A stretch of DNA of 64,000 nucleotides. It comes from a virus. Both the position numbers and the translations under genes were made by a program. Position 1 is the stretch's first letter. Each line of letters opens with the position of its first letter. Below are positions 31,117 to 50,371 of this stretch, one piece after another. The DNA lies in IMG/VR virus record IMGVR_UViG_3300037458_001730, positions 32,056 through 96,055 of that record. One strand, written 5' to 3'. Below the pieces are notes generated by a model. It did not search any database and was not told the DNA's origin. It saw only the letters and a program-made list of their open reading frames with translations.

Positions 31117-33426
31117 TTAAAGTTTTACTGTTGTTAACTTGTCTTCTACAATAAATTTTATATCCTTTGAATCTAAGTTTAAAACCATTTCTTTTTGACT
31201 TCTATCTGAAAATTCTTTAAACCATGATTTTCCAACGATTGTTAAGAATTTAGATTTTGATATTTCTGTCATTAACCTTGTTTTTTGAGTTCTAAAAGTT
31301 TTGGATTTTTCATACAACCAATCCTGTATAGCTTGATTGTCGTTTGGATCTTTTAGATTTTTGACGAATTGCCTAAACTCTTTAATTGCTGGAACTAATA
31401 ACTCTTGACGGCCCGTTACTGAACCATTGGCATCTAAAGTTCTTTCTGCAGTCTCCACATCTTTTGCGCTCATGCTAGTAGATAGTTTATCTATCTTTAT
31501 TTCAAGCGTGTTAACAACAATTTCTTCTCCAGATTTTTCAACAACTTTTGCTGGAGCAAATCCGTTATCTTTTAAACCAAGTGATGCTAACCACAAAGCA
31601 GCTTCGGAGCCATATTGTTCCTCAAAGTTTTTATCAACACCTTTAAACAACCTCTTTTTAAGAGCTGTAAATACTGTGTTTGCAGCTTGTAGTTTTAACA
31701 ATTCCCAAGAATTAATAAAAACGTCTTTAGCAGAAAGAGAACTTACCATTTTTCTGTTTATCACTGGTATATTCTCGAAATTTAAAACATAGATTTTTCC
31801 ACTTTGATATTGTTCGCCATGCAATAAACCATTTAATTGTAATTTGTTGAATGTTTCTTCTGATAAAGACACTGGTAAATTATAAGAGTGTATAATTCCA
31901 TCCTTTACAATTGTGTAATTTCTGAAAATTTTTGTTGGAAATTTTGATTTTATTCCAAAATTATTTTTAGGTAGAAAAACATAACCTGGAAAAGTAACCG
32001 AAACAGACAGGTTTGCTCTTTTGTCATTCCATGTTAAATCATTAAAAGAACATGGCTGTAATTCGTTGTCATAATTAAATTCAAGCTCTTCATTTGTTTT
32101 CTCTTTAATTTCGTCTATGGTTTTTTGTATATCTGATAAATTTCCGTCTTTTAATTTTTGCTCTATTTTTTCTTTATCTTCTTCGCTTAATCTATCTGAT
32201 TTAGAAACTGTTTTTGAACTTATCTTTTTATAAGAAAAAGATTCATGTTGTGGATACCAAAAATTTTGTTCGTTGCTCATTAAATCAGATAACATGTCAA
32301 TTACACAATATGCGTCTTCTGATGGTTCTAAATTTGGGTTATAACCATCTTTGTATCTATCTGATGGGTTGTTTATACAGGAGACAAATTTTTCTTCAAG
32401 CTCTGTAATTTTTTGAGTCCCAAACGTGTTTGCTTTAATTTTTATAAGATTAGCGTCGCCAATCATTTTTAGCAACTCAGAAACGGTATTGTAGTCATTT
32501 TTTCTGCTAAACGCAAAAAGAGATGCATAAAAACCAACCAACATTTCGTCATTTGCATATTCTCCACTTATATATTTTTTATTAAAATATTCAGCGCCAC
32601 CTAAATAGTTTCCGATTGGCTCTTGTTTTGTGATGTAAAAAATGTTTGTTTGTCCATTTACGCTAATAGAAACTTCATTACTTGCGTTTGGCGAATAAAG
32701 AATAACATCTTTGTCAACAACATTCCAAACGACATCAAACTCTGGTGTTCTATCTAAGTGAACATATGTTCTTCTGTTTTGATTTTTATTTGTAAACTGC
32801 TTACTTAAATAAGGATCTAGATCTTGAAAGCTTTTTGACACTGTGTGTATTCCACCAAACACCTGGGCCATTCTACTCATAAGCTCTCTGTTACAGTAAT
32901 AACCGTATTCTACAATAGTAGCTCCATTTATATAATCTTTTAGATCATCAATGGTATTTAAAATTTCTTTTTCTGACCAGCAATTGTCACAACCATCGGT
33001 TAAAAAAAACAATGAGTGTAAATAATCTTTTTTGTAAGAATTTATGTTTTTAATTACTTTTTTAGCCTCTTCTAATGGTTGTTTGAACGCTGTTAAACCT
33101 TGAGGGGTTAAATATTTATCTATGGCATTCTTTACGTTTGTGAGGCTTATATTGCTACTTACTTGATAATCTTCTAAAACCACACCAAATTCATTTTTGC
33201 CTGAAAACCAAATAATTGTAGTTGAATCGTTTGGTTTTAATATGGTTGAAATTTTATTAAACAGATCTTTTCTTATTTTTACAAGTTGGTCGCTCATGGA
33301 ACCAGAACAATCAATTATAAACAAATGGTGCGTGTTAATATCTACCAATCTTTCTCTTTGTTCTGTAAAATCGACAATTTGTTGAGCGAAATACAGGTCT
33401 TTGTTTATTTTTAAATAATTAATCAT
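31117..33426 (-). CDS. Large vWA-domain protein
   Basis: IIDCSGSM, GLTAF and FFLTDGCDN MIDAS motifs at the N-terminus; long C-terminal region of unknown function. Confidence 0.8.
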   Translation of the reverse strand: MINYLKINKDLYFAQQIVDFTEQRERLVDINTHHLFIIDCSGSMSDQLVKIRKDLFNKISTILKPNDSTTIIWFSGKNEFGVVLEDYQVSSNISLTNVKNAIDKYLTPQGLTAFKQPLEEAKKVIKNINSYKKDYLHSLFFLTDGCDNCWSEKEILNTIDDLKDYINGATIVEYGYYCNRELMSRMAQVFGGIHTVSKSFQDLDPYLSKQFTNKNQNRRTYVHLDRTPEFDVVWNVVDKDVILYSPNASNEVSISVNGQTNIFYITKQEPIGNYLGGAEYFNKKYISGEYANDEMLVGFYASLFAFSRKNDYNTVSELLKMIGDANLIKIKANTFGTQKITELEEKFVSCINNPSDRYKDGYNPNLEPSEDAYCVIDMLSDLMSNEQNFWYPQHESFSYKKISSKTVSKSDRLSEEDKEKIEQKLKDGNLSDIQKTIDEIKEKTNEELEFNYDNELQPCSFNDLTWNDKRANLSVSVTFPGYVFLPKNNFGIKSKFPTKIFRNYTIVKDGIIHSYNLPVSLSEETFNKLQLNGLLHGEQYQSGKIYVLNFENIPVINRKMVSSLSAKDVFINSWELLKLQAANTVFTALKKRLFKGVDKNFEEQYGSEAALWLASLGLKDNGFAPAKVVEKSGEEIVVNTLEIKIDKLSTSMSAKDVETAERTLDANGSVTGRQELLVPAIKEFRQFVKNLKDPNDNQAIQDWLYEKSKTFRTQKTRLMTEISKSKFLTIVGKSWFKEFSDRSQKEMVLNLDSKDIKFIVEDKLTTVKL

Positions 33427-33461: not shown

Positions 33462-33493
33462 CAAATATATTGTTTTTTTTGTTGACATGCAAA
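33462..33493 (-). promoter_or_regulatory. Bacteroidota sigma70 promoter (-33 TTTG / -7 TAnnTTTG)
   Basis: On the - strand: TTTG-N20-TATATTTG, a perfect consensus upstream of the vWA gene. Confidence 0.7.
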
Positions 33494-37772: not shown

Positions 37773-37826
37773 AAAACAAAAAAAAGAAAAAATAGTAAAA
37801 AAAATATAAAAAACATTTTTTGTTAC

Positions 37827-37834
37827 TATTTATA
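37827..37834 (+). promoter_or_regulatory. Putative late promoter motif TATTTATA
   Basis: Upstream of the major capsid gene; the motif recurs before most structural genes. Confidence 0.65.
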
Positions 37835-37860
37835 ACAAACAATTTAAAAAAACAAAAAAA

Positions 37861-39522
37861 ATGAGCGAATTATTAAATAGCGGAAAAGTAGGTCTAACCG
37901 TGTTTAAATCATTAGCAGAACAAAGAAATGCTATTGTAAACAACTGGAAAGACTCTGGATTACTTGAAGGCCTTCGTGGTATCAAGAAATCAAACATTGC
38001 GCAACTTTTGGAAAGTCAAGCTCAGTCTATGTTGAATGAGGTTACTCTAGACTCGGCTGCAGGTAGATTTGACACTGTTGCGTTCCCAATCGTGAGAAGA
38101 GTATTCTCAAGATTATTAGCTAATGAGATTGTATCTGTACAACCTTTAGCTTTACCTTCTGGTTTATTGTTCTACATGGACGCAAGAGTTTCATTTAACG
38201 GTGCTGACTCTACACAAGCTAACCCAGCGTATCCAACAATGCCAGATAACTCTGGTGCAGGAGCATACAGCAAAAAATCACCTTTCAATCAAGCAACAAA
38301 CCAAACTGGTCCTACATTTGCATCTACAAGTGCTTATGAAAGATTCTATAACAATAGAGGTTTTGATTTGTCATTTGGTACTGGTGAAACTGCTGTTGGT
38401 ACTACTGCAACTATGAATATGGGTGTATTCAGCGGAAGTGGTATTGCAAACAAAACTTTCACTTTGGGTGCTGGTTTCAGCTTCTCAAGAGCACAATCTT
38501 CAGCATCTCTTAGATTGTCTGCTGTTACTGCTGTGTATTACTCAGCTGCAACTGGTAACATTCTAATTGTTCCTGCTGGTGGAAGATTACCTTATTACTC
38601 ACAAGTTCAAACTTGGACTAACGACCAATTCGAAAACAACGAATTAGACGCAGTTGTTGACCTTCGTGTAAACGGTATCTATGGTTCAGATTTCAATTAC
38701 CTTATGCTTAACAACGGTGCTGGTACTTTCGGTACTTCATACACTTTAAGCATTGTTCCAGCTTATGAGGTTTATAATGACCTTGAAGCTAGATCAGAAA
38801 TGGGTGAGATCACCATCAGATTCTCTTCTGTAACAGTTAACACTATTACTAGAAAACTTAGAGCACACTGGACTCCTGAACTTGCTCAAGATTTGGAAGC
38901 ATACCACTCAATCGACGCTGAAGCTGAATTGACAGCTTTATTGTCTGAGCATATCGCTGCTGAGATCGACAGAGAAATCTTAATCGACCTTATCAATGGT
39001 GCACCTTTCAGAGCTCGTTGGGATTACAAAGGTTTGTCAAACAACGCAAACTTCTTTGGTACTCAAAAAGACTGGAACCAAACTTTGATTACAAGAATCA
39101 ATGAGGTTTCTGCTCAAATCCACAAAGCAACTCTTAGAGGTGGTGCTAACTGGGTAGTATGTTCAGCTGAGGCTGGAGCTATCTTCGACGATTTGGAATA
39201 CTTCCACGTTGATGGTTCAGCTCAACCTGAGTCAGAAAAATACAACCTTGGTGTAGAAAAAATTGGTAACCTTGGTTCAAGATATGTGGTTTACAAAGAC
39301 CCTTACTTGCCTGCTCCAATTGTGTTGATTGGTCACAAAGGAAATACTTTCCTTGAGGCTGGTTACATCTACGCACCATACATCCCTCTTCAGTTAACTC
39401 AAACTATCTATGACGCTAACGATTTCACACCAAGAAAAGGAATCATGACTCGTTACGCTAAGAAAATGGTTAACAACAGGTTCTACGGTGTTATCTACAT
39501 CGACAACATCAACACTTACTAA
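37861..39522 (+). CDS. gp23: Major capsid protein (T4 gp23-like)
   Basis: VSVQPL..PSGLLFY, TRKLRAHWTPELAQDLEAYH, IAAEIDREI, YAPYIPL, FTPRKGIMTRYA; visibly biased toward C-ending codons. Confidence 0.97.
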   Translation: MSELLNSGKVGLTVFKSLAEQRNAIVNNWKDSGLLEGLRGIKKSNIAQLLESQAQSMLNEVTLDSAAGRFDTVAFPIVRRVFSRLLANEIVSVQPLALPSGLLFYMDARVSFNGADSTQANPAYPTMPDNSGAGAYSKKSPFNQATNQTGPTFASTSAYERFYNNRGFDLSFGTGETAVGTTATMNMGVFSGSGIANKTFTLGAGFSFSRAQSSASLRLSAVTAVYYSAATGNILIVPAGGRLPYYSQVQTWTNDQFENNELDAVVDLRVNGIYGSDFNYLMLNNGAGTFGTSYTLSIVPAYEVYNDLEARSEMGEITIRFSSVTVNTITRKLRAHWTPELAQDLEAYHSIDAEAELTALLSEHIAAEIDREILIDLINGAPFRARWDYKGLSNNANFFGTQKDWNQTLITRINEVSAQIHKATLRGGANWVVCSAEAGAIFDDLEYFHVDGSAQPESEKYNLGVEKIGNLGSRYVVYKDPYLPAPIVLIGHKGNTFLEAGYIYAPYIPLQLTQTIYDANDFTPRKGIMTRYAKKMVNNRFYGVIYIDNINTY

Positions 39523-39537
39523 TCAATTAGTATATCT

Positions 39538-39570
39538 AAAAAGAGAGCTCAAAAGGCTCTCTTTTTTTTT
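39538..39570 (+). terminator. Intrinsic terminator after the capsid gene
   Basis: AAAAAGAGAGC-tcaaaag-GCTCTCTTTTTTTTT. Confidence 0.88.
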
Positions 39571-39621
39571 GAAAAAATTTAACTCCTAAATTTGGTGTAA
39601 TGACTTTTTTATTGTATATTT

Positions 39622-41106
39622 ATGTATATGAAAAAACTACAATGTAAAATAACAAAAAAACAATTCGGCGATATTGATAATAGAAGTGGTATAATTACTG
39701 ATCATCTTAAAAAATTAAACATAAATATTCCTTCTTCATTTTTAAGGAGACAATTTTTAAAAAAAGAAGGTAAATCATGGCACTCTCAATATTTTGATAT
39801 TATCGAGGTTGGTGATAAGGAAATATTTTGTTGTAAATATTGTAGCTGGAAAACTTATGATTTAGAAAATAAAAGCGGATGCTATACAACTCATTTACTA
39901 GAAGAACATGGTAAAAATATAGAAATTTATATTGAAGAATTTCCTGAAGAAAAAACAAAGTTTAAAACTTATTTTAATAAAAAACAAAATTTAGAAAAAA
40001 CTCAAAAAGATGGAAATTATGTTGTTTGCAAGATTTGCAACTTTAAAGTTAGATATTTAACAAATACACATCTAGCTAAACATAATATAAGCCCAGAAGA
40101 ATATAAAATTAAATTTGGAATTAACGAATATGCCAGCAAAAACTTTATAAATACAACTAGAAATATTTTAGTTGAGGCTTCTAAAAATATAACACACTCT
40201 TTTGTATCTAAACCAGAAAAAGATTTGAAAGAATACATTACAAATGATCTAGGTATAAATATTATACATAATGATAAAAAATTTTTAAAAGGTGTTGAAA
40301 TTGATATATTAATTCCAGATTTAAAAATTGCTATCGAATTTAATGGGAACCTATATCATTGTGAGAATTATGGTGGTAAAGATAAATATTTTCATTTAGG
40401 TAAAACAGAAAAATGTAGCGAAATTGGGTATAAATTAATACATATATTTGAAGATGAATGGTTTTTAAAAAACGACATAGTTAAATCTAAAATTCGTCAT
40501 TTGTTTGGATTAAACACATTTAAAAAAAGAATTCATGCTAGAAAATGTGAAATAAAATTAATTTCTCCCTCTGAAAAGAATGTTTTTTTAAATAAACATC
40601 ATATTCAAGGCGAAGATAAAAGTTTAATTCATTTAGGGGCATTTTTTGATGAAAAATTAATGGCAGTTACAACCTTTGATAATAAAAGAAAGATGTCAAA
40701 TCACAACAATAAAAAAGATATATATGAACTAAAAAGATTCGTGGTAGATAATGATTATAACATACCTGGAATATTTAGTAAAATTTTAAAAAAATTTATT
40801 GATTTATATGCTCCAGGTGAGATTATAAGTTTTGCTGATAAAAGGTGGACCATTAATAATGAAAACCTATATAGTAAGTCTGGGTTTAAGCTTATAGATA
40901 CTTTAAAACCAGACTATACATATTACAATTCAAAAGTTTCAAGATATAAGAGGTTTCACAAATTTTCTTTTGGAAAAAAAACTCTTAAAAAGAAGTTTCC
41001 AGATCTATATTCTGATGATAAAACTGAGTGGCAAATTATGCAGGAGGCTGGTTATGATAGAATTTGGGATTGTGGAAAGTTGAAATATTCAATGCTTCTA
41101 AGTTAA
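39622..41106 (+). mobile_element. Free-standing homing-endonuclease-like gene (C2H2 zinc fingers, Vsr/PD-(D/E)XK-like domain, C-terminal RIWDCG domain)
   Basis: CKYC..H....H and CKIC..H...H fingers; EIDILIPDLKIAIEFNGNLYH; HIFEDEW; HHIQG; YELKRF; RIWDCG. Inserted after the gp23 terminator. Confidence 0.75.
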
Positions 41107-41133
41107 TTTTTTATCTTTCAACTTTTGTTATAG

Positions 41134-41274
41134 CTAAAATCTGTGTATTACATTAAGAAAAAATACAAAGAAATATACCCATATGATTGAAATCACACAA
41201 ACAATTGCTATAACAAATAAAGCTATATTGTTTAAAATTAGCTCTTTTAAGTAATTTGTTATTTTCTTCCACAT
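41134..41274 (-). CDS. 46-aa single-TM membrane protein
   Basis: Not in the track. MWKKITNYLKELILNNIALFVIAIVCVISIIWVYFFVFFLNVIHRF. Confidence 0.5.
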   Translation of the reverse strand: MWKKITNYLKELILNNIALFVIAIVCVISIIWVYFFVFFLNVIHRF

Positions 41275-41280
41275 TTTATT

Positions 41281-41460
41281 TTACCTGTATTCTGAAAGCA
41301 TAATAGCCGCTACGAATAACGATGCTATTACGGCAATAACCATAGAAGGTCCAAGCAAAAATAATTTTATAATTAAATAAAGAATTAAACCGCAAATTAA
41401 AACAGCGATCATAAAAATGCAAAAATAATATGCGATGCTTAAAAAATCTCTTAATTTCAT
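41281..41460 (-). CDS. 59-aa two-TM membrane protein
   Basis: Not in the track. MKLRDFLSIAYYFCIFMIAVLICGLILYLIIKLFLLGPSMVIAVIASLFVAAIMLSEYR; ATGA overlap with the HD gene stop. Confidence 0.6.
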   Translation of the reverse strand: MKLRDFLSIAYYFCIFMIAVLICGLILYLIIKLFLLGPSMVIAVIASLFVAAIMLSEYR

Positions 41461-41984
41461 ATTAAACTTATCAACTCTTCATGTCTGTTTAAATACTTTA
41501 TTTTAGCCTCTTTTGGGCTCCAAAATTCAAAGTGTGGATCTCTTTCACCTTCTCCACCATAAAATGCTTTATATTCGAGTTTAAGCATCTCATTATCCAC
41601 CCAGTGAATATCGTCAGTAAATGGATATTCTAATCCTAACCATGGAAATATTATAGATTGTAAACGCTCTTCTATTTCTACGTATTGAGGTAAGTTTTTT
41701 TTGATGGGTCTTGGCATGTCAACCAATAAACCCTCAGAATCATCGTGGTGTAAGAATTTAAGTTGTTGAATTGGTGTACCAGGGAAATAAGAACACAAAA
41801 CAGCATGTTGAGCTACAGAATAAAACTCTGGCGAATGCCCACCATATCTACACAAATTTGATAAGGCGTGAGCAATATCTATTAATCTAAGATCCTCTGG
41901 TTTTGGATTTAAAACATCAAAAACCACCAAAGAATGAGTTAATAGACCATTTGGCGAAATCTTTTGTACATCTTCTAATTTCAT
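41457..41984 (-). CDS. HD-domain phosphohydrolase (YfbR/YfdR-like deoxynucleotidase)
   Basis: IAHALSNLCRYGGH, YSVAQH, LHHDDSE, DMPRPIK; TTTG-N20-TATTTTTA promoter at 42003-42034 (-). Confidence 0.85.
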   Translation of the reverse strand: MKLEDVQKISPNGLLTHSLVVFDVLNPKPEDLRLIDIAHALSNLCRYGGHSPEFYSVAQHAVLCSYFPGTPIQQLKFLHHDDSEGLLVDMPRPIKKNLPQYVEIEERLQSIIFPWLGLEYPFTDDIHWVDNEMLKLEYKAFYGGEGERDPHFEFWSPKEAKIKYLNRHEELISLI

Positions 41985-42068
41985 GGCATTTCGTATTAAA
42001 TATAAAAATACAACAAAAATTCAACATTTGCAAATTAGAGTTTTTCTAAATTATTTATAACAAATAAA

Positions 42069-42731
42069 ATGAACGTAAGAAGTATAATTAAGGAGACTAT
42101 TGAAAACTTGTTAGACAAGCAAGATTTGGCAGATAAATTTGATAAAGATATCAAGTATTTAAATGGTTTTAAGCTAATTAAGACAAGAAATGACGAAAAA
42201 ATGTCTTTGTGGGTTTTTGAATGTAAAGTTAAAAATTACATTTTGAGATTTTTTATAGAAAAAAACAAAATAAAAAACACTTGGGCTTCTAAAATTTTTA
42301 TTTATTGGAAAGAAATAAGTAAAAATTTAACAAACGCAAGAGGAAAAGAATATGAATTTTCTTTTGGTCCATTTGATTCTTATGAATCAATGGTTGATGA
42401 AATAAACAACAAACTTAAAAATAACCCAAATCTTTCATTAAAAAACTTTATAGACGACAATAGACTTCAATTTGATTTGGATCTTATTTATATGCTTAAA
42501 CTTTTGCAAAAAAATTCTTCTTTATTGTTTTCAGTTAACGACAAAATTTTTAATAAGATAAAAGGCATTTACGAAAAAATTAAAGAGTCAAATTCAGATG
42601 AAGATTTAAGAAAATTTATTGCCCAAAATGCTTACGATATACAAGATAAACAAAGAATGATTTTAGATTTACAAATCCTGTATAAGCTTGATTTTTTCAA
42701 TAAAAAAGAGAAGGTCGATTCAATTTTCTAA
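42069..42731 (+). CDS. Hypothetical protein
   Basis: TATTTATA at 42052-42059; MNVRSIIKETIE N-terminus. Confidence 0.7.
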   Translation: MNVRSIIKETIENLLDKQDLADKFDKDIKYLNGFKLIKTRNDEKMSLWVFECKVKNYILRFFIEKNKIKNTWASKIFIYWKEISKNLTNARGKEYEFSFGPFDSYESMVDEINNKLKNNPNLSLKNFIDDNRLQFDLDLIYMLKLLQKNSSLLFSVNDKIFNKIKGIYEKIKESNSDEDLRKFIAQNAYDIQDKQRMILDLQILYKLDFFNKKEKVDSIF

Positions 42732-42755
42732 CATATTTATAAATAAAAATAAGAA

Positions 42756-43052
42756 ATGGCTTTTAATAACGTAAATTACTCAATGATACCACTTACAAGT
42801 GGTACTTATACAGGAAATGATCTTGGAAATGGCATAACTGGAAGTTGTGTTTGTCAAATACAATGTTTAACAGCTGGATCTATAACAGTTTCAGCGCTTG
42901 GTGGTGGTATAGCTACTTTCACACTGACAGCTGGACAAACTATTGATGTTATGGTTGGTGCTTGTACTGTTGTTTCTGGAACCTATGTTGGCTTTAAACC
43001 AGCCTTTTCAAATAAAGGCATGGGAGCAATATCATGGGGTGGTAATCTTTAA
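42756..43052 (+). CDS. Small Gly/Thr-rich beta protein, probably a virion component
   Basis: TATTTATA at 42734-42741; beta-strand composition; precedes the neck genes. Confidence 0.65.
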   Translation: MAFNNVNYSMIPLTSGTYTGNDLGNGITGSCVCQIQCLTAGSITVSALGGGIATFTLTAGQTIDVMVGACTVVSGTYVGFKPAFSNKGMGAISWGGNL

Positions 43053-43065
43053 TAATTAAATAAAA

Positions 43066-44256
43066 ATGGGAATATTTTGTGCAGATGGGTGTTTAACTGG
43101 AATGACTCCTTATGAGCAGACTAAACTTAAAAATCGAATAAGAAGATTTTTAGGTGAACCTGTTTTACAAGTAGAACTTCATGATGAACAAATAGAGGAA
43201 AACATTTGCATTGCAATAGAGGAATATTCTTCTATGGTAAATAACTGGGTTTTATATAATAGACTCCCAGAAATGTTGGGCTTGCCTTCTGAAATAGATT
43301 TTACATTAAAATACATTTCAAACAGTCTCTATTTTGAAAAAGCTCAAACAACTACATATGGAGAACAAGTTGGTGGTGGTGTAAACTCGAACAGAGAACT
43401 TAAAAGAGACGCGATAGTATTAACTGCTGGCACACAAGATTATACAATACCAGCTGGAAGAGAAGTTAACGAAGTTCTTTGGTTTACTCCAAGTTTTGTA
43501 AATATAACTGGTTTAGATCCATTTAATACTGATGTTTTAGCTGTTACGGAATTTCAAGGAACATACCTTGGAAATTCTATGATAAGTGTTCTACCAGTTT
43601 TTAACACATTACTCACTGCACAAGCTGCTGAATTGAGAAATAGAGTAAGAGGAAATGAATATTCTTATGTTTTAAGAGGTGGTCCTAATGGAACAAAAGT
43701 TTTAAAATTATTTCCAGTTCCTTTTCCAAATAACGCAAACGCTGGAAGTGGTTTTGGTGTTGTTGGTACTCCTGGTACAATTTTTTATACATACTACGAC
43801 AGAGTATCACCATATGGAAACTCTGAATATAGTGGAAACAGCGCAAACCCTGGATATACTGGAGTTACAGATTATCAAGCTTCTTTAGGTTATCAAGGAA
43901 ATGGTTTAGTATCAACACCTGCGGATGCTCAATTACATTACATAAGTTACAATCAATTAAATTCAGTTGCACAAACTTGGGTAAAAAGATATGCTTTAGC
44001 CCTTTCAAAAGAATCTCTTGGAATTGGTATTAGAGGAAAATTTAATGGCACATTACCTATACCTGGCGCTGAACTTTCCATGAACAAAGATGATCTTATT
44101 CAAACAGGTAGAGAAGATCAAGCAAAATTGAAAGAAGAATTAACTAAACAATTAGAGGATTTGAGTTATGATAAACTCATGGAAAGAAGAGCTAGTATTC
44201 AGGAAAATATAAATAAAAATTTGGGTTATGGCCCATTGGGTATTTCAGTTTTTTAA
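43066..44256 (+). CDS. gp13: Neck protein (T4 gp13-like adaptor)
   Basis: RFLGEPVLQVEL, WVKRYALALSKE..G...GKF..LPIPG; position in the head-tail module. Confidence 0.8.
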   Translation: MGIFCADGCLTGMTPYEQTKLKNRIRRFLGEPVLQVELHDEQIEENICIAIEEYSSMVNNWVLYNRLPEMLGLPSEIDFTLKYISNSLYFEKAQTTTYGEQVGGGVNSNRELKRDAIVLTAGTQDYTIPAGREVNEVLWFTPSFVNITGLDPFNTDVLAVTEFQGTYLGNSMISVLPVFNTLLTAQAAELRNRVRGNEYSYVLRGGPNGTKVLKLFPVPFPNNANAGSGFGVVGTPGTIFYTYYDRVSPYGNSEYSGNSANPGYTGVTDYQASLGYQGNGLVSTPADAQLHYISYNQLNSVAQTWVKRYALALSKESLGIGIRGKFNGTLPIPGAELSMNKDDLIQTGREDQAKLKEELTKQLEDLSYDKLMERRASIQENINKNLGYGPLGISVF

Positions 44257-44267
44257 AATAATTTTTT

Positions 44268-44834
44268 ATGCCAGATTTAAATGAATTAAGTGATCGTCCC
44301 GAAAGAATGAACGAAGCCGAGGCTAAGCCCGAAGGTATTGGCATGTTCTTTACTGATAAAGAAGCTAATTTGTTTATGTCAAATGGTAGAGAAATTACAG
44401 AAAAAGTAGTGAGTGAATTTTTTTTATTATATAGAGTTGATATTCAAAAAACTCAAACTGATTTTTACGGGCAATCAAAAAAGAAAGTATATCTACCAGA
44501 AATTAAAATTTATGGTAGAATAAATGTGGAAGTTAAAGCTCCAGAAGTTATGTTCAAAGGTGGTATAGAAAAAAAAGGTATGGGAAATTTAACTGCTCAT
44601 GTTTATCTTTCACACCTGGAAGAACTTGGATTAATTGAAAAAAGAGAAAATACAAACATTATTGTTTCTGGAATTAAAATGGGTCATTTTATAGGATATA
44701 AAGGTCAATTCTATAAAATAATAAATGATGGATATTCACAAATATCAAATGAGTTTTCATGGGCTGGTGATAGAAGATTCTTTATAACCATAGAGGCAGT
44801 AGAGGTAGATGAAGATGTATTTAAAGGTCGTTAA
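44268..44834 (+). CDS. Neck/head-closure protein (gp14-like)
   Basis: Follows gp13; LLYRVD...TDFYGQ pattern; beta-barrel-like composition. Confidence 0.6.
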   Translation: MPDLNELSDRPERMNEAEAKPEGIGMFFTDKEANLFMSNGREITEKVVSEFFLLYRVDIQKTQTDFYGQSKKKVYLPEIKIYGRINVEVKAPEVMFKGGIEKKGMGNLTAHVYLSHLEELGLIEKRENTNIIVSGIKMGHFIGYKGQFYKIINDGYSQISNEFSWAGDRRFFITIEAVEVDEDVFKGR

Positions 44835-45165
44835 TTAAATTAATAATTATTTTATCAATTTTAATAAATTTTACTATAACTGTGTTTATAGTAAAAACCT
44901 ACTGTGTTTAACTGTGTTTAAATGATATTAATATACTACCAGATTAGGGAAAAACGTACAAAAACTCAACGCCCCCCTCCCCCACACATGTTAAAAAAAC
45001 ACATGGTTCTTTAAAAGAAAAACAACTAAAAAATTAGTTATTTGGAGAGGTAAAAGACTTTAAGTTTTTATCTGGATTTGGTTATACTACCATCTTCAGT
45101 GTAAAAACTCCCGTGGGTTGAAACCAACGCCCCCAGAAGAAAACAACTTCACGAGTTAAAAAGCT
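44835..45165 (-). other. Structured non-coding locus: candidate replication origin or ncRNA
   Basis: Longest ORF-free gap in the window, with a G5AG6 tract, internal direct repeats, hairpins and an AT-rich end; preceded by a host-type promoter. Confidence 0.5.
44869..44920. repeat. Three ACTGTGTTTA direct repeats; the first sits within an 11-bp inverted repeat
   Basis: Copies at 44879-44888, 44901-44910 and 44911-44920; TTTTACTATAA/TTATAGTAAAA at 44869-44879 and 44886-44896. Confidence 0.85.
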
Positions 45166-45169
45166 ATGT

Positions 45170-45201
45170 CAAATATAATAACAAACTTAGACATTTCCAA
45201 A
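45170..45201 (-). promoter_or_regulatory. Bacteroidota sigma70 promoter pointing into the non-coding locus
   Basis: On the - strand: TTTG-N20-TATATTTG, perfect consensus, with no downstream ORF. Confidence 0.7.
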
Positions 45202-45227
45202 CTTTTTTGAACTATTTATAAAAAAAC

Positions 45228-45947
45228 ATGGGAATACTTGATAATATTGGAAAAAACCTAGACGAAAACTTTGAGAATTACGCTTTTTTACCGCAGCGTA
45301 TTGGGTTTTTAGACATTGATAAAGGTATTTATGAATTTATTAAAGGTTTAAACTTATCAATTTCTGATGAAAATGGAATATTGAGATCAGTACCTGTAAT
45401 TTTTAATTCTCAAGAACTTTGGGCTGAAAGAAGAATGAACTGGAAAGCCATGAGAAATGAGAATGGAGAAGAGATAACAAGGCCATTTATGGTCATATCA
45501 AGAGTGGGTGCAGAACAAGGAACATCACCTCTAAAATTTACAATACCAAATAAAAAGAAATTCACCTTTGTCAAAGTTCCAAAAACAGATGGCACTTTGA
45601 AGGGTTATGATCTGTATAAAATACCACAACCAACTTATGTAGATATTAAATATGAATTGGTGTTTGTTACAACATATGTTGTAGATGCTAATGAGTATTA
45701 TGAAAAAATTTTCAGAGATGGTTTTTCCAATAACCAGGGGTATATGAATATAAATGGTTATTGGACATCTTCAAGGATTGATGCCCCTTCAGAGAGTAGG
45801 CAAGAAGAGATTTCTTCTGAAAAAGTTTATGAAATAACATTTCCGATTACTGTATTTGGAAAGTTGGTTGATCCTACTCAATTTGAGAGGGTTAACACCA
45901 TTAATAAAGTTCAAATTAAAATAACTGAGAAAAAAACAAATAGCTAA
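45228..45947 (+). CDS. Tail terminator/sheath stabiliser (gp15-like)
   Basis: VPVIF..QELW, RPFMVISR, IPQPTYVDIKYEL; lies between neck and sheath genes; TATTTATA at 45213-45220. Confidence 0.7.
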   Translation: MGILDNIGKNLDENFENYAFLPQRIGFLDIDKGIYEFIKGLNLSISDENGILRSVPVIFNSQELWAERRMNWKAMRNENGEEITRPFMVISRVGAEQGTSPLKFTIPNKKKFTFVKVPKTDGTLKGYDLYKIPQPTYVDIKYELVFVTTYVVDANEYYEKIFRDGFSNNQGYMNINGYWTSSRIDAPSESRQEEISSEKVYEITFPITVFGKLVDPTQFERVNTINKVQIKITEKKTNS

Positions 45948-46076
45948 TCAGATTTTGATATTTTTTTAATATTTATAATAAAAAGTTTTTGAGCGGTTAA
46001 CTATAGAAAAAATGATAGAAAACAGCAAAAAGTTTGTAAAAATAGTAACTAACAACAAAAAAAATAAACAATAAAT

Positions 46077-48461
46077 ATGGCAACAATTTTCGTTTCACCA
46101 GGGGTATATGACAAAGAACAAGACTTTTCAGTATTTGCCTCAAGGATTGGTATCACACGCTTAGGTCTTGTAGGTAAGACACCTAAAGGACCAGCATTTG
46201 AAGCCATCCGCGTATCAAGTGCTGAAGAATATAATTTAAGATTTGGCTCTACATCCCCAGATTATCCATTATCTTATGTGGCAAATTCGTTTTTAACTCA
46301 ATCAAATGAGTTGACAGTTACAAGAATTTTGGGTGGTGAAGGCTTTGTTAATTCACCAGCTTGGGTTTTGGTGGCAGACTCTGCTTCTACTCTTTCTGGT
46401 ATGACACTTGCAGTTATTAGAAGTAAAAGAAATCAAATTTCTGGAAGCTTTTATGCAAATTATGCTAACGATATAAAACTTGGAGGAACACCTTCAACAG
46501 TTTTATCTAATTTTATACTTTCTGGTACTGGAATATCTCCACTTACTGCTGTTACAAATAGTGGTTATACAGTTTCTCTTGATGAGACTGCAGATAGTTA
46601 TATTGTTAAAATTTTGGGTAAAGATCCAAAAGTTATCGCTGGTTCTGCAAATATTTATGTTGAATCTATTTATCCTCACTTAATAAGAGAAGCTAGAGCA
46701 AGAGGTGCAATGTCAAGTTTGAACTTGATTTATTTCTCTGGTGCAACAGCAACAGATTATCAAAGCAGTTACACAAACGCTGTGACTCCTTACATAGTTT
46801 CAAGAGTTGTTGGTGGACAAGTTAAAGATTTGTTTAGATTTCAAACCATTTCTGATGGTGATGCTTCTAATAGAGAAATAAAAATTTCTATTGCTAACTT
46901 AGATTTGGTTAACTACACATTTGATGTTATAGTTAGAAGATTTGATGATACAGATGCTACAGTGCAACAAACAGCTCTTGAAAGATGGAGTAATTGTTCT
47001 CTTGATCCAAAAAGCACAACCTATATCGGTAAAATAATTGGAACAACAGATGAGTCTTATCCAAAAAGATCTAAATTTATTACTGTTGATATTGCTGAAA
47101 ATGTTTCACCAACATCAATACCTGCTGGTTTTAGAGGATACAACCTTAGAGCTTATGGTGTAAGTGGTGCAACTACAGTAGTTCCTGCTGGTATTTATTA
47201 TAAAACTACATACCTTTCAGGAGATTCTAAGTTTAAAACTTATCTTGGTATATCTGAATTGGGTTATACAAGTTTGACTCAATCACAAGTTTCAACGTTT
47301 AATGCTGTTAAAACTCTTGAAGCAGATTTGTTTAGCTATCCAGGAGGTGTTACCTCTGGTATGACAACCATAAAAGGTTTTCACTTGGAAAATACTGCAG
47401 ATTCTTCTGAATTTATTTCTGGAGATAAGGCTACTTTAACAGCTTACACAAACACCGCTGGAACACTTCTTGACAAAACCTTGTTAAAGTTTACACTTGT
47501 TCCTTATGGTGGATTTGATGGTTGGGACAAATATGATCAATTCGAAAATCACTATGAGCAATTTACTGATACCTATACATCAAACGTTGCAGCATTTACA
47601 GCTGGTATTGATACCATGTCTTCTCCAGAAGAAGTAGATATCAATATTTTTGCAACTCCTGGTATTGACTTTGATAACAACGAAAGTTTGATCAGATATG
47701 GTCTTGACATGGTTGAGACAAGAACAGACGCTATTTACATCATAGATTCACCAAGAATCACTGTTGGTGATGAGAAAGGTACACCAGAAGAATTGGTAGC
47801 CACTCTTGAAACAACTGGTTTAGATAGCAGTTATGCTGCTACATACTGGCCATGGATCCAAATAGAAGATGTTAACACTAATGAATATACTTATCAAGCA
47901 CCAACTTTAATGGTTGTTAAAGCAATGGCTTACACAGATAATGTGGCAGCTCCATGGTTTGCGCCAGCTGGTCTTAATAGAGGTATCGCTGATAACTCAG
48001 TTATCAGAGCAGATATCAAATTGTCAAAAGATCAAAGAGATGTGCTGTATCAAGGAAGAGTAAATCCAATTGCAACATTTGTTCAACAAGGTGTTTCGAT
48101 TTGGGGTCAAAAAACTCTTCAAGTTAGACAATCTGCTCTTGACAGAATCAATATTAGAAGATTGCTTCTTCAGGTTAGAAGATTGATAGCTGCAGCATCA
48201 TTGACATTAGTGTTTGAACAAAATGATCAAACATTAAGAAATCAATTCCTTGCAAAAGTTGAGCCTATCCTTCTTCAAATTCAAAATCAAAGAGGTTTAA
48301 CAGCTTTCAAAGTTGTAATGGACGATAGCAACAATACTGCTGATACAATCGACAGAAACACTTTGGTTGGTAGAATACAATTGAAACCTACAAGAACTGC
48401 AGAATTTATAGATCTTACGTTTGAAGTTTTGCCAACTGGAGCTAATTTTTCAGATTTTTGA
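46077..48461 (+). CDS. gp18: Tail sheath protein (gp18-like)
   Basis: FVSPGVY..EQD, GKTPKGP, YAATYWPW, PWFAPAGLNRG, VNPIA, IWGQKTLQ, LDRINIRRL, FEQND. Confidence 0.96.
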   Translation: MATIFVSPGVYDKEQDFSVFASRIGITRLGLVGKTPKGPAFEAIRVSSAEEYNLRFGSTSPDYPLSYVANSFLTQSNELTVTRILGGEGFVNSPAWVLVADSASTLSGMTLAVIRSKRNQISGSFYANYANDIKLGGTPSTVLSNFILSGTGISPLTAVTNSGYTVSLDETADSYIVKILGKDPKVIAGSANIYVESIYPHLIREARARGAMSSLNLIYFSGATATDYQSSYTNAVTPYIVSRVVGGQVKDLFRFQTISDGDASNREIKISIANLDLVNYTFDVIVRRFDDTDATVQQTALERWSNCSLDPKSTTYIGKIIGTTDESYPKRSKFITVDIAENVSPTSIPAGFRGYNLRAYGVSGATTVVPAGIYYKTTYLSGDSKFKTYLGISELGYTSLTQSQVSTFNAVKTLEADLFSYPGGVTSGMTTIKGFHLENTADSSEFISGDKATLTAYTNTAGTLLDKTLLKFTLVPYGGFDGWDKYDQFENHYEQFTDTYTSNVAAFTAGIDTMSSPEEVDINIFATPGIDFDNNESLIRYGLDMVETRTDAIYIIDSPRITVGDEKGTPEELVATLETTGLDSSYAATYWPWIQIEDVNTNEYTYQAPTLMVVKAMAYTDNVAAPWFAPAGLNRGIADNSVIRADIKLSKDQRDVLYQGRVNPIATFVQQGVSIWGQKTLQVRQSALDRINIRRLLLQVRRLIAAASLTLVFEQNDQTLRNQFLAKVEPILLQIQNQRGLTAFKVVMDDSNNTADTIDRNTLVGRIQLKPTRTAEFIDLTFEVLPTGANFSDF

Positions 48462-48480
48462 TTTTAAAAAATAAATTATT

Positions 48481-48515
48481 AAAAAAGGGATACGAAAAAA
48501 GTATCCCTTTTTTTT
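48481..48515 (+). terminator. Intrinsic terminator after the sheath gene
   Basis: AAAAAAGGGATAC-gaaaaaa-GTATCCCTTTTTTTT. Confidence 0.88.
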
Positions 48516-48583
48516 ATGTCATTTTTTTGTTTTATATTTATATATAAATACAGCTACACTTGTAGCTTTTATTTGAATATATT

Positions 48584-50371
48584 ATGAAACAAACATGTGA
48601 AAATTGTTTTTGTGAATTTGAAAAACCGCAAATACAAAAAACTTGCTCAAGAAAATGTGGGGATGAATTAAAAAAGAAAAATAATAGAGAGAAAAGATTT
48701 TGTAAAAAATGCGAGGTGGATTTTGAAGTTAAGAAAAAATCTAAAACCACAATGTGTTCTGCAAAGTGTAGAAAAGAGTGGGCTTTGATCCCAGAAAATA
48801 AATTTACAAGAATAGAAAAGGCTAAAATGGCGATGCTTGAAAAGTATGGTCAAGATTCTGCTTTTAAATTAAGTGGTTTTGAAGAAAAATCAAAAAAAAC
48901 AAAAAAAGAAAGATATGGCGATGAGAATTTTGTTAATATCGAAAAGGTGATGAAAACAAAAGAAAAACTTTATGGTGATGCTTATTATAACAACATAGAA
49001 AAGAATAGAAAGACAAAAAAAGAAAATCATGGAGATGAGAATTATAACAATAGAGATAAAGCCTTAAACACAACGCGTGAATTATATGGTGTGGACCATG
49101 CACTAAAAAAAGAAGAGTTTAAGAATAAACAAAAGGAAACCAATTTGGGGTTGTATGGTGTTGAATACCCGCTTCAAAATAAATCTATTTTAAAGAAAGC
49201 CCAGGAAACTAATATTAAATTATACGGTTTTAATTCTCCTTCTAAAAATGAAGAGGTTAAAAATAAAATTAGACAGTCTTGGTATGAAAAATTTGATGAC
49301 TCTATTGTTTTTGAAAAAATGAAGCAAATGAATATAGAGATTTTAGGTGAATACAAAGGTTTAAGAATAAAAAATATTTACAACGAATATAAATTTTTGT
49401 GCCACAGTTGTAGTAACACATATATGGGAACATTTTCAAATAATATTCCACCAATTTGCAGAGTGTGTTATCCAATAACAGCTAACAACAAATATCAAAT
49501 TGATTTTGCTAATATATTAAGAGATGTTGGTGTTGATTTCGTTGAAAACACTAAACAGGTTATAAAGCCATATGAATTAGATTTTTATTTTCCAGTCAAT
49601 AAATTAGCTGTAGAGTTGAATGGTAATTATTATCACTCAGAAATAGGCGGTGAAAAATCAAAAGATTATCATCTTAAAAAAACCGTTTTATGCAACGAAA
49701 AAAATATAAATTTGTTACACTTTTTTGAAGATGAAATTTTGTTTAAAAAAGATATAATAATATCTATGCTAAAAAACAAGTTAGGTATAACTGAAAACAA
49801 GATATTTGCTAGAAGTTGTGAAATAAAGGAAGTTGGTAAAAAAGAAAAAGCAGACTTTTTAGATAAAAACCACATCCAAGGCAATTCAAAAGATAAAGTT
49901 AGAATTGGATTATATTATGAAAACAATCTTGTCGCTGTAATGACTTTTGGAAAGCTTAGAAAAAGTATGGGAAATAAAGAGGAAAGTGAAAATTTTTATG
50001 AGCTTGTAAGATTTTGTTCTTTATTAAATCATAATGTCATAGGATCTTTTTCTAAACTTTTAAATTACTTTACAAAAAAATATGCTCCTAAAAAGATAGT
50101 CACTTTTGCTGATTGTAGATTAAGTGGACTTAATCATGAAAACACAATTTATTCAAAAAACGGGTTTAAATATACAAACACTATAAAACCAAGATATTGG
50201 TATTTTCAAAAAGGAAACTACTTCAAAAGATATCATAGGTTTAAATTTAATAAAAAGAGCTTATTGAAGTTTCTAGATAGACCAGAGTTATCAGAATGGC
50301 AAATAGCTCAATTATTGGGTATGGATAGAATTTGGGATTGTGGAAATTTAAGGTTTGAAAAAATTTTTTAG
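48584..50371 (+). mobile_element. Free-standing homing-endonuclease-like gene (CxxC fingers, KYG-type repeats, Vsr-like domain, RIWDCG domain)
   Basis: CENC..CSRKC, repeated T..E.YG motifs, ELDFYFPVNKLAVELNGNYYH, HFFEDE, NHIQG, YELVRF, RIWDCG. Paralog of the gene at 39622. Confidence 0.75.

What the first reader, a model, noticed from the sequence alone, without database searches (positions are those of the whole stretch)
44835..45227. Non-coding locus resembling a transcription-primed (R-loop) replication origin with a mitochondrial CSB II-like G5AG6 tract
Seen: the largest ORF-free gap, lying between gp14 and gp15. Reading the - strand there is first a perfect host promoter (45201-45170), then a hairpin-rich segment. 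Next come GGGGGAGGGGGGC (44983-44971), a striking G-tract in this AT-rich DNA, and three TAAACACAGT iterons (44920-44879), one inside an 11-bp palindrome. It ends in an almost pure A/T stretch (about 44831-44875). Short blocks are duplicated about 150 nt apart (TATACTACCA at 44932 and 45083; CAACGCCCCC at 44967 and 45125). Known: T4 origins use promoter-driven R-loops with a downstream unwinding element, and G-tracts in ColE1 RNA II and mtDNA CSB II stabilise primer RNA-DNA hybrids. Inference: a primer-RNA origin, or otherwise a structured antisense ncRNA.
Basis: partly seen in the sequence, partly recalled or inferred. Interest (0 to 1): 0.8.

Follow-up and report, generated by a model that had tools for sequence, protein, structure and literature searches.

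The report
New structured RNA gene in phage
The gap between two tail-assembly genes of this uncultured giant phage holds a previously undescribed, well-conserved folded RNA gene read backwards from a host-type promoter, and the evidence points away from a DNA replication start site.

Summary
The promoter at 45201-45170 (- strand) is TTTG-N20-TATATTTG, an exact match to the Bacteroidota sigma-A consensus.

The gap is conserved. About 60 related metagenomic phage loci keep 290-500 non-coding bases between the gp14-like gene and the gp15 tail-terminator gene. A covariance model finds the same element in 36 distinct loci. In these, 93.6% of cells are paired, 47 of 53 pairs show compensatory changes, and the score is 0.47 against 0.17 in shuffles.

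G.U outnumbers A.C 164 to 20, so the RNA is read from the minus strand (about 45165 to 44929, then a hairpin). The G5AG6 tract is the 3' strand of junction helices, not a free G-quadruplex tract. The two 'duplicated blocks' are two homologous modules of one RNA.

The iterons and the A/T stretch are not conserved. GC skew shows no inflection here. One intact homologue lies in a Flavobacteriales chromosome with no phage genes nearby.

No Rfam family matches. Sister phages carry a second, different structured RNA at the same site.

Verdict: a new stand-alone structured ncRNA family whose function is unknown, most likely acting in trans. The origin-primer reading is unlikely. I found no expression data.

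The parts
45198..45201 (-). -33 box TTTG of the predicted Bacteroidota-type sigma-A promoter
   Evidence: TTG/TTTG at this spacing in 33 of 36 related loci
45170..45177 (-). -7 box TATATTTG (TAnnTTTG); predicted transcription start about 45165
   Evidence: Invariant CAAAnnTA columns on the + strand. The box is present 0-3 nt before the model start in 34 of 36 loci. Box geometry from PMC9723704. The start site is inferred, not measured.
44929..45165 (-). core of the structured RNA (short form of the family, about 237 nt)
   Evidence: Covariance model R1 hit 44929-45168, 94 bits, E 5e-29. Single copy in the 96-kb contig. Fold energy -61.2 kcal/mol, z -2.4, against z -1.2 for the + strand.
45108..45156 (-). 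5' hairpin H1, whose large loop carries the near-invariant motif GUUUU..UGGGGGCGUUG (G run at 45134-45125)
   Evidence: Helices 1-2: all 11 pairs show compensatory changes. Loop columns are invariant.
45079..45092 (-). small hairpin UGGU/ACCA (the 'J' hairpin)
   Evidence: Helix 3. It varies as GGU/ACC, UGC/GCA, CGC/GCG and GUGG/CCAC among relatives.
45044..45075 (-). 5' strands of the long-range helices: CCAGAU (45075-45070), AAAAACUUAA (45069-45060) and CCUCUCC (45050-45044)
   Evidence: searches (MFE; coordinates), helix 4. The CCAGAU/AUCUGG closing helix is tentative.
44972..44983 (-). the G5AG6 tract: GGGGAGG pairs with CCUCUCC (one U.G pair)
   Evidence: Helices 4 and 9 (C/U opposite G; the central pairs change on both sides).
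44959..44976 (-). second copy of the GGGGGCGUUG motif with its U-rich tail, pairing in the window with AAAAACUUAA
   Evidence: (D6)
44938..44954 (-). 3' tail UUUUUCCCUAAUCUGGU; a second same-sense copy of the UGGUA element
   Evidence: the two UGGUA-type copies and their common partner change together across the family.
44869..44896 (-). perfect 11-bp hairpin followed by UUUAUU: terminator-like end of the RNA (it may also stop gp14 transcripts)
   Evidence: I9. The generic terminator scan found none. Relatives carry unrelated hairpins here, and one is followed by T7.
44879..44920 (+). three copies of ACTGTGTTTA ('iterons'); specific to this phage
   Evidence: Absent from the same place in relatives.
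45211..45220 (+). CTATTTATA, a late-promoter-like motif for gp15; not part of the RNA
   Evidence: The sense-orientation motif TATTTATA lies 8-28 nt before many structural genes: 30 copies against 11 expected. The column is conserved in all relatives.
   Evidence: conserved synteny
45228..45947 (+). tail terminator gene (T4 gp15 fold)

Best explanation
The gap holds a stand-alone gene for a structured non-coding RNA of a family not yet described.

How it is made (inferred from sequence):
- Host RNA polymerase with sigma-A starts at about 45165 from the TTTG-N20-TAnnTTTG promoter.
- It transcribes leftward, opposite to the flanking late genes.
- It stops at the hairpin 44896-44869.

How it folds:
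- A 5' hairpin whose 24-nt loop displays a near-invariant UGGGGGCGUUG motif.
- A small second hairpin.
- A multi-helix domain closed by pairing of the 3' tail. At the junction of this domain the two G runs form the 3' strands of helices, followed by a second copy of GGGGGCGUUG.

How it probably acts (inferred): the RNA works in trans on a protein or RNA partner, which it contacts through the two repeated G-rich motifs, from early in infection onward. It is not a replication primer. The fold and the strand are shown by comparative evidence; transcription, timing and partner are inferred.
For: 1. Conservation. Relatives that share only 44-90% protein identity in the flanking genes all keep a 290-500 nt non-coding gap.
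2. Homology. Model R1 detects the element at E down to 1e-98, in 36 distinct loci at E <= 1e-6.
3. Structure. 93.6% of 1565 cells are paired and 47 of 53 pairs change on both sides. The covariation score is 0.470, against 0.168 in shuffles (0 of 500 reach it) and 0.08-0.12 for slid partners.
4. Strand. On the same pairs G.U = 164 and A.C = 20. Even a structure derived from the + strand shows more A.C (72) than G.U (46). Alifold energy is -109 for the - strand against -83 for the + strand.
5. Promoter. The TAnnTTTG box abuts the model start in 34 of 36 loci, and its consensus is documented for Flavobacterium.
6. Autonomy. An intact copy (66.9 bits, E 4e-19) lies in a Flavobacteriales chromosome among IS1595, TPR-CHAT, HTH and T9SS genes, with no phage structural genes nearby.
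7. Coding is excluded. There is no conserved ORF and there are indels throughout the alignment.
8. No known family matches at any threshold.
Against: - No transcript has been seen.
- The promoter pattern alone is not enriched in the window.
- The terminator is weak by the generic scan.
- Presence in every clade member at a fixed site suggests a core phage function. That fits a cis or replication role at least as well as an accessory trans-acting one.
- The chromosomal homologue is a single case: 1 of 87 genomes of its family.
- The closing helix and the alternative pairing are only modestly better than chance: mean longest duplex 9.0 bp against 6.2 bp, and 19% of shuffles do as well.
- The partner and the function are unknown.
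Confidence: 0.72

Rival explanations
1. Primer-RNA (R-loop) replication origin. The leftward transcript stays hybridised to its C-rich template through the G runs and is processed into a primer. The A/T-rich repeat region downstream then melts.
For: - A conserved promoter points into an A/T-rich, hairpin- and repeat-bearing stretch.
- G clusters in the RNA are conserved in all relatives.
- ColE1 RNA II shows that a primer RNA can need a defined fold (own knowledge).
- The element is universal at a fixed site in the clade, as a core function would be.
- Several relatives have their own short direct repeats in the same 3' region (read: L075, L028, L040).
Against: - The G runs are helix strands with covarying neighbours.
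- The spacer between the runs is A, AAA or a 6-7-nt helix strand.
- The iteron and A/T-stretch sequences are not conserved.
- There is no GC-skew inflection. The turning point lies at window position ~22-24 kb, where the gene strand switches. The contig is only ~29% of the genome, and skew is a poor origin marker in T4-like phages.
- An intact homologue lies in a bacterial chromosome without phage replication or structural genes.
Confidence: 0.08
2. Cis-acting insulator or antisense device for the late operon. Leftward transcription, or the RNA pairing with read-through gp14 transcripts, separates gp14 from gp15 expression, and the fold only stabilises the RNA.
For: - The RNA gene is convergent with gp13-gp14 and sits exactly between two late transcription units.
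- gp15 has its own late-promoter-like motif.
- The site is fixed across the clade.
- Sister phages carry a different RNA at the same place, which suggests that position matters.
Against: - Near-invariant loop sequences and a multi-helix fold are more than an antisense or roadblock role needs.
- The chromosomal homologue works, if at all, outside any late operon.
- The RNA overlaps no coding sequence.
Confidence: 0.1
3. Element of the + strand late mRNA (a 3' UTR of gp14 or a leader of gp15), such as a processing or translation-control structure.
For: Both flanking genes are on the + strand, and helices are by nature compatible with both strands.
Against: - G.U outnumbers A.C by 164 to 20 on the - strand, so the + strand would carry 164 A.C mismatches.
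- Paired cells are 93.6% on the - strand against 84.4% on the + strand.
- The gp15 promoter-like motif lies downstream of the element.
- The + strand fold has z -1.2.
Confidence: 0.03
4. Phage copy of a host island RNA that controls a host defence protein, for example an RNA inhibitor of the neighbouring TPR-CHAT protease. The phage would use it as a decoy against abortive infection, as ToxI mimics are used.
For: - The only non-phage homologue ends 10 nt from the stop codon of a 788-aa TPR-CHAT gene, in a variable island with IS elements.
- In the 87 genomes of that family, the RNA and this CHAT gene both occur only in that one genome.
- The phage copy has a host-type promoter.
Against: - This rests on a single genome.
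- The RNA and the CHAT gene are convergent, not in one operon.
- No CHAT or other island protein is encoded in the 96-kb phage contig.
- Anti-defence genes are usually patchy, whereas this RNA slot is universal in the clade.
Confidence: 0.05

Closest known systems
ColE1 RNA II and the T4 ori(uvsY)/ori(34) primer transcripts
   Same: A promoter-driven, non-coding transcript with G-rich segments that points into A/T-rich DNA. RNA II also needs a defined fold.
   Different: Here the G runs are intramolecular helix strands. No conserved unwinding element or iterons were found. The family has a member in a bacterial chromosome. There is no evidence of a hybrid or of initiation. T4 origin transcripts have no conserved covarying fold (own knowledge).
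Mitochondrial CSB II (G5-6AG7-8)
   Same: In this one phage the tract reads G5AG6, within a transcript that starts at a nearby promoter.
   Different: In relatives the single A is replaced by AAA or by a 6-7-nt segment that base-pairs with a covarying partner. The resemblance is therefore an accident of the short form.
Large orphan structured RNAs linked to phages (GOLLD, ROOL) and the other ornate RNAs reviewed in 10.1101/2024.12.08.627333
   Same: Found mainly in phage or metagenomic DNA; strong covariation; complex multi-helix fold; unknown function; not next to an obviously regulated gene.
   Different: No sequence or structure match (Rfam). It is smaller (240-300 nt against 580-800 nt). 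It has a fixed site between a gp14-like gene and the tail-terminator gene. It has a Bacteroidota-type promoter.
phi29 pRNA
   Same: A phage-encoded structured RNA made from an early host-type promoter. Its short complementary elements co-vary across relatives.
   Different: pRNA belongs to small terminal-protein podoviruses, is about 120-174 nt, and sits at a genome end. There is no sequence or fold similarity, and no evidence for a packaging role or for multimers.
Type III antitoxin RNAs (ToxI) and the phage mimics of them
   Same: A phage carries a relative of an RNA that, in a host, lies beside a defence-type gene.
   Different: There is no tandem 34-36-nt repeat array, no toxin gene in an operon with it, and only one host example.

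Membership tests
Transcription-primed (R-loop) origin, ColE1 / T4 oriF-oriG type | Promoter whose transcript enters the origin | tested here: met
   Conserved TTTG-N20-TAnnTTTG on the - strand. This is a prediction only; no transcript data exist.
Transcription-primed (R-loop) origin, ColE1 / T4 oriF-oriG type | Conserved DNA unwinding element and/or iterons downstream of the promoter | tested here: not met
   The 10-mer repeats and the A/T stretch have no counterpart in sequence in relatives. Only unrelated hairpins or repeats occupy that place.
Transcription-primed (R-loop) origin, ColE1 / T4 oriF-oriG type | Replication starts here (skew, marker frequency) | tested here: inconclusive
   There is no GC-skew inflection at the locus. 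However, the contig is about 29% of the genome, and skew follows gene strand.
Transcription-primed (R-loop) origin, ColE1 / T4 oriF-oriG type | Persistent RNA-DNA hybrid processed into a primer | not testable with these tools
   Needs RNase H, S9.6 or primer-extension experiments.
CSB II-type G-quadruplex hybrid element | Conserved G5-6AG6-8 tract free to form a quadruplex | tested here: not met
   The interior of the tract is variable, and the tract flanks or contains covarying Watson-Crick pairs.
Any Rfam 15 family (including 6S, tmRNA, RNase P, riboswitches, ribozymes, GOLLD, ROOL, HEARO, Flavo-1) | Covariance-model score at or near the gathering threshold | tested here: not met
   No hit at gathering in the 64-kb window. 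Only chance-level hits at E up to 10 on the locus. No hits in relatives or in the chromosomal copy.
6S RNA | Long rod with a central open-promoter-like bubble | tested here: not met
   The consensus fold is a 5' hairpin plus a branched domain.
phi29-type pRNA | Intermolecular loop-loop pairing, and a packaging motor that needs RNA | not tested
   Three co-varying short segments exist, but intermolecular pairing cannot be told from intramolecular pairing here.
Type III antitoxin RNA | Tandem short repeats directly upstream of a toxin endoribonuclease gene | tested here: not met
   There are two dissimilar modules rather than a tandem array. No such gene is adjacent in the phage.
Stand-alone structured ncRNA gene (generic) | Own promoter, no ORF, covarying helices, conservation beyond that of neighbours, strand-specific G.U | tested here: met

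The most novel reading that the evidence does not exclude
The RNA is an essential core component of this clade of giant Bacteroidota phages. Two versions of this reading remain open:
- A folded primer or organiser RNA for replication.
- An RNA that self-associates through its three co-varying UGGUA/UACCA-type segments and takes part in neck-tail morphogenesis or DNA packaging, as pRNA does in phi29. That would be unprecedented in a T4-like virus.

The evidence does not exclude either. It only shows that the RNA is structured, that it has a conserved host-type promoter and so is presumably transcribed independently, and that it is universal at this site.
Probability: 0.12. Interest if true: 0.88.

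Novelty: new variant of a known kind. Interest (0 to 1): 0.62.

Why it matters
Few phage non-coding RNAs of this size have both strong covariation support and a fixed genomic address. This one, together with a second unrelated-looking RNA at the same site in sister phages, marks an 'RNA slot' inside the neck-tail gene block of a widespread clade of uncultured jumbo myoviruses. These occur in wetland, lake, marine and sediment metagenomes and probably infect Flavobacteriales or other Bacteroidota.

The finding gives RNA biologists a compact 240-300 nt target with an alignment and a model ready for probing. It has an unusual trio of co-varying segments that suggests alternative or intermolecular pairing. 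For phage biologists it is a candidate early function that protein-centred annotation misses.

It also corrects an attractive but unsupported origin reading: the CSB II look-alike arises by accident from a shortened helix.

Tried and rejected
- Generic sigma-70 and terminator scan. The site scores at chance level and no terminator is called. The scan is not suited to Bacteroidota promoters.
- BLAST of the gap and of gp15 against 50,697 GenBank phages. No match, so there is no cultured relative.
- Metatranscriptome contigs of two wetland RNA runs laid on 37000-50000. They cover the major capsid gene (37854-39508) and small pieces of other genes, but not the gap. These are contigs at low depth, so this is no evidence either way.
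- Scan of 185,579 species genomes for the loop motif. It returned 120+ rows. All were chance matches inside unrelated sequence except one Flavobacteriales contig.
- Looser loop motif in IMG/VR. Of 45 new loci, none was confirmed by the model.
- Model search of the 87 genomes of that Flavobacteriales family. Only the one genome has the RNA. The weak hits of 20-25 bits are short and taken as noise.
A protein search of 401 genomes of the class found only one distant CHAT homologue, in an unpublished genome (G179), which I did not use.
- tblastn of the island's proteins against the phage contig: no hits.
- PDB sequence searches for the gp14-like and gp15-like proteins: no hits. The fold search settled gp15.
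- The idea that the two large 'homing endonuclease' genes nearby are IscB-like RNA-guided nucleases using this RNA. Pfam shows ROS/MucR zinc-finger, DUF7487, DUF559 and Mom-like domains instead.
- The idea that CCCU in the 3' tail pairs with the G runs. It is not maintained in L036-L038, where that segment pairs elsewhere.
- Earlier notes of this scan held nothing on this element.

Full report
**What is in the sequence.** The window is part of a 96-kb IMG/VR virus contig estimated to be about 29% complete. It is about 30% G+C. Around the finding it carries a T4-like structural block:
- major capsid gene, 37861-39522
- head-tail adaptor-like gene, 43066-44256
- the gap, 44835-45227
- a 239-aa gene, 45228-45947
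- tail sheath gene, 46077-48461

The 239-aa protein folds like T4 gp15, the tail terminator: Foldseek matches 9MKB at E 7e-9 and 4HUD at E 2.5e-7. The 'gp14' label has no independent support.

The G5AG6 tract is unique in 64 kb, with none found in 100 shuffles.

**The promoter.** A generic sigma-70 scan rates the site 9/12, no better than chance. Read with the Bacteroidota rules, it is exact: TTTG (45201-45198), 20 nt, TATATTTG (45177-45170) on the - strand. In Flavobacterium the sigma-A box TAnnTTTG occupies -12 to -5 (PMC9723704), which puts the start near 45165.

The pattern occurs only twice in the window, against 3.9 expected. The other copy sits directly before a - strand gene. Its significance therefore rests on conservation, described below. 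Genes here have no Shine-Dalgarno sequence (seen directly), which also fits a Bacteroidota host.

The conserved CTATTTAT(A) just before the gp15 start is a different signal. In sense orientation, TATTTATA lies 8-28 nt before many structural genes: 30 copies against 11 expected. It is most simply the clade's late promoter and is not part of the RNA.

**The gap is conserved.** Protein-guided searches brought in 20 viral and 60 metagenomic loci with relatives of the two flanking genes at 43-90% identity. Wherever both genes are on the contig, they are separated by a non-coding gap, usually 290-500 nt. The gap sequences align, with long invariant blocks.

Most relatives carry an extra middle domain that this phage lacks. 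The window holds a short form, as do L017, L036-L042 and others.

**It is an RNA, and it is read leftward.** RNAalifold on 21 full-length copies predicts 53 pairs, 34 of them with compensatory changes. A covariance model built on that alignment (R1) finds the window copy at 44929-45168 (- strand, 94 bits, E 5e-29). It also finds more distant copies that were not in the seed. On the resulting 36-sequence alignment:
- 93.6% of 1565 cells are standard pairs.
- 47 of 53 pairs change on both sides.
- The covariation score is 0.470.
- The 500 shuffles give 0.168 and none reaches the observed score; structures slid by 1-3 columns give 0.08-0.12.

The strand is settled by wobble pairs. On those pairs G.U = 164 and A.C = 20, so a + strand RNA would carry 164 mismatches. 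This is not just bias from how the model was built: a structure predicted from the + strand alignment also shows more A.C (72) than G.U (46).

The TAnnTTTG box ends 0-3 nt before the model start in 34 of 36 loci, with TTG/TTTG about 20 nt upstream in 33. The window RNA alone folds to -61.2 kcal/mol (z -2.4), against z -1.2 for the + strand. The gap has no conserved ORF.

**Anatomy in window coordinates, - strand**:
- Hairpin H1, 45156-45108. Its large loop holds the near-invariant GUUUU..UGGGGGCGUUG.
- A U-rich linker with ACACUG.
- A small hairpin, UGGU/ACCA, 45092-45079.
- The 5' strands CCAGAU, AAAAACUUAA and CCUCUCC, 45075-45044.
- Small internal hairpins.
- GGGGGAGGGGGG, 44983-44972. Its GGGGAGG pairs with CCUCUCC through one U.G pair.
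- A second GGGGGCGUUG motif with a U-rich tail, 44976-44959.
- The tail UUUUUCCCUAAUCUGGU, 44954-44938.
- An 11-bp perfect hairpin, 44896-44869, followed by UUUAUU.

In full-length relatives a 6-7-nt segment lies between the two G runs. It pairs with a covarying partner, for example UAUAG/CUAUA against UAAUA/UAUUA. In other relatives the spacer is AAA. The G-tract is therefore helix and junction material.

One feature remains unexplained. Three short segments change together across the family: the 'J' copy, a same-sense 3' copy, and one complementary partner. The variants are UGGUA/UGGUA/UACCA, UGCAA/UGCAA/UUGCA, CGCAAG/CGCAAG/UGCG, UGGAAGA/UGGAAGA/CCAC and GGCAAG/GGCAAG/UUGC. This points to alternative pairing or to pairing between molecules. 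The long-range closing helix is only modestly better than chance: mean 9.0 bp against 6.2 bp, with 19% of shuffles as good.

**What is not conserved.** The three ACTGTGTTTA copies and the A/T stretch have no counterpart in relatives. That place holds unrelated palindromes, and in a few cases other short repeats; one hairpin is followed by T7. Cumulative GC skew rises steadily through the locus. Its minimum lies at window position ~22-24 kb, where the gene strand switches.

**Where else it occurs.**
- No Rfam 15 family matches the window, the relatives or the chromosomal copy.
- In IMG/VR the loop motif occurs only in this clade.
- The contig has one copy.
- A motif scan of 185,579 species genomes gave chance hits plus one real homologue. 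This is contig JACJZB010000006.1 of a Flavobacteriales MAG, at 66.9 bits and E 4e-19, with the H1 loop, both G motifs and the co-varying trio intact.
- That copy has no gp13, gp14, gp15 or gp18 within 8 kb. It lies among HtrA, T9SS-tail, Fib_succ_major, TPR-CHAT, HTH, DUF2130 and IS1595 genes, which marks a bacterial chromosome island. It ends 10 nt from the TPR-CHAT stop codon and is convergent with that gene.
- Neither the RNA nor that CHAT gene was found in the other 86 genomes of the family.

**Sister RNAs.** In six more distant loci the same gap holds a different RNA of about 335 nt, also on the - strand and also behind TAnnTTTG. Nineteen of its 48 predicted pairs are compensatory among only six sequences. 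One locus, L071, has yet another sequence. The site is thus a conserved slot for structured RNAs.

**Interpretation.** Shown by comparative evidence:
- a conserved, strand-specific, multi-helix RNA fold
- a conserved host-type promoter at the right distance
- no coding potential
- no known family

Inferred: transcription by host polymerase (hence early or constitutive), termination at the hairpin, and action in trans.

I favour trans action for two reasons. The loops are conserved in sequence well beyond what stability needs, and an intact copy exists outside any phage. Against this, its presence in every clade member at one site would suit a core cis function, and no transcript has been seen. 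The two RNA runs that hold this phage give contigs over the capsid gene only, which proves nothing about the gap.

The origin reading keeps a small probability. It explains the promoter, the G clusters and the A/T-rich 3' region. It does not explain the covarying helices that use the G runs, the non-conserved 'iterons', or the chromosomal homologue.

**Limits.**
- E-values from R1 are rough because the calibration is short.
- The alignments used for pair counts were fitted to the model.
- The relatives are not independent samples.

Noticed in passing
L005:2595-2929, L049:1590-1924, L057:1605-1939, L064:1237-1571, L065:1604-1938, L072:1582-1916 (all - strand): A second, different-looking structured RNA of about 335 nt sits at the same site, between the gp14-like gene and the tail-terminator gene, in sister phages. 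It also lies behind a TAnnTTTG box. Of 48 predicted pairs, 19 are compensatory in six sequences. There is no Rfam hit. L071 has a third, G+C-richer sequence there.
   Followed up: partly
G001:C19:74713-74905 (= L180:2713-2905, L218:1501-1693): A chromosomal homologue of the RNA lies in a Flavobacteriales MAG. It ends 10 nt from the stop codon of a convergent 788-aa TPR-CHAT protease gene, in an island with IS1595 transposases, HTH, DUF2130 and AAA-DUF4143 genes. Both the RNA and this CHAT gene are absent from the 86 other genomes of the family that were searched.
   Followed up: partly
L002/L008:1628-3000 and L010:3565-4937: In the closest relatives (gp15 79% identical) the gap is 1373 nt. After the RNA gene comes a duplicated copy of the first 22 codons of gp15, followed by an extra ORF. 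This looks like insertion of a mobile, homing-endonuclease-like gene at the 5' end of gp15.
   Followed up: no
L005:4090-4349, L011:3508-3854, L013:5405-5667 and others: In many relatives the tail sheath match is interrupted after about residue 110 by 260-340 extra bases that are absent from the window's gene. There is no intron hit in Rfam, so it is probably an in-frame inserted domain.
   Followed up: no
window, e.g. 27845, 34959, 35569, 37827, 42052, 42734, 45213, 58474 (+ genes); 1476, 50749, 51766 (- genes): The motif TATTTATA, in the orientation of the gene, lies 8-28 nt before the start codons of many structural genes: 30 copies against 11 expected. It is probably the clade's late promoter and reads as the reverse complement of T4's TATAAATA.
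   Followed up: partly
window 39622-41106 and 48584-50371: Two large genes called 'homing endonuclease' by PHROGs sit right after the capsid gene and after the sheath gene. Pfam finds a ROS/MucR-type zinc finger in the first, and DUF7487, a weak sub-threshold DUF559 (Vsr-like) match and a Mom-like domain in the second.
   Followed up: partly
window 33462-33493 (- strand): This is the only other exact TTTG-N19-21-TAnnTTTG in the window. It lies 36 nt before the - strand gene 33426..31117, a likely early or host-type promoter.
   Followed up: no
window 37854-39508: Two wetland metatranscriptomes hold error-free contigs of the major capsid gene, so this phage was transcriptionally active in the sampled environment.
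   Followed up: no
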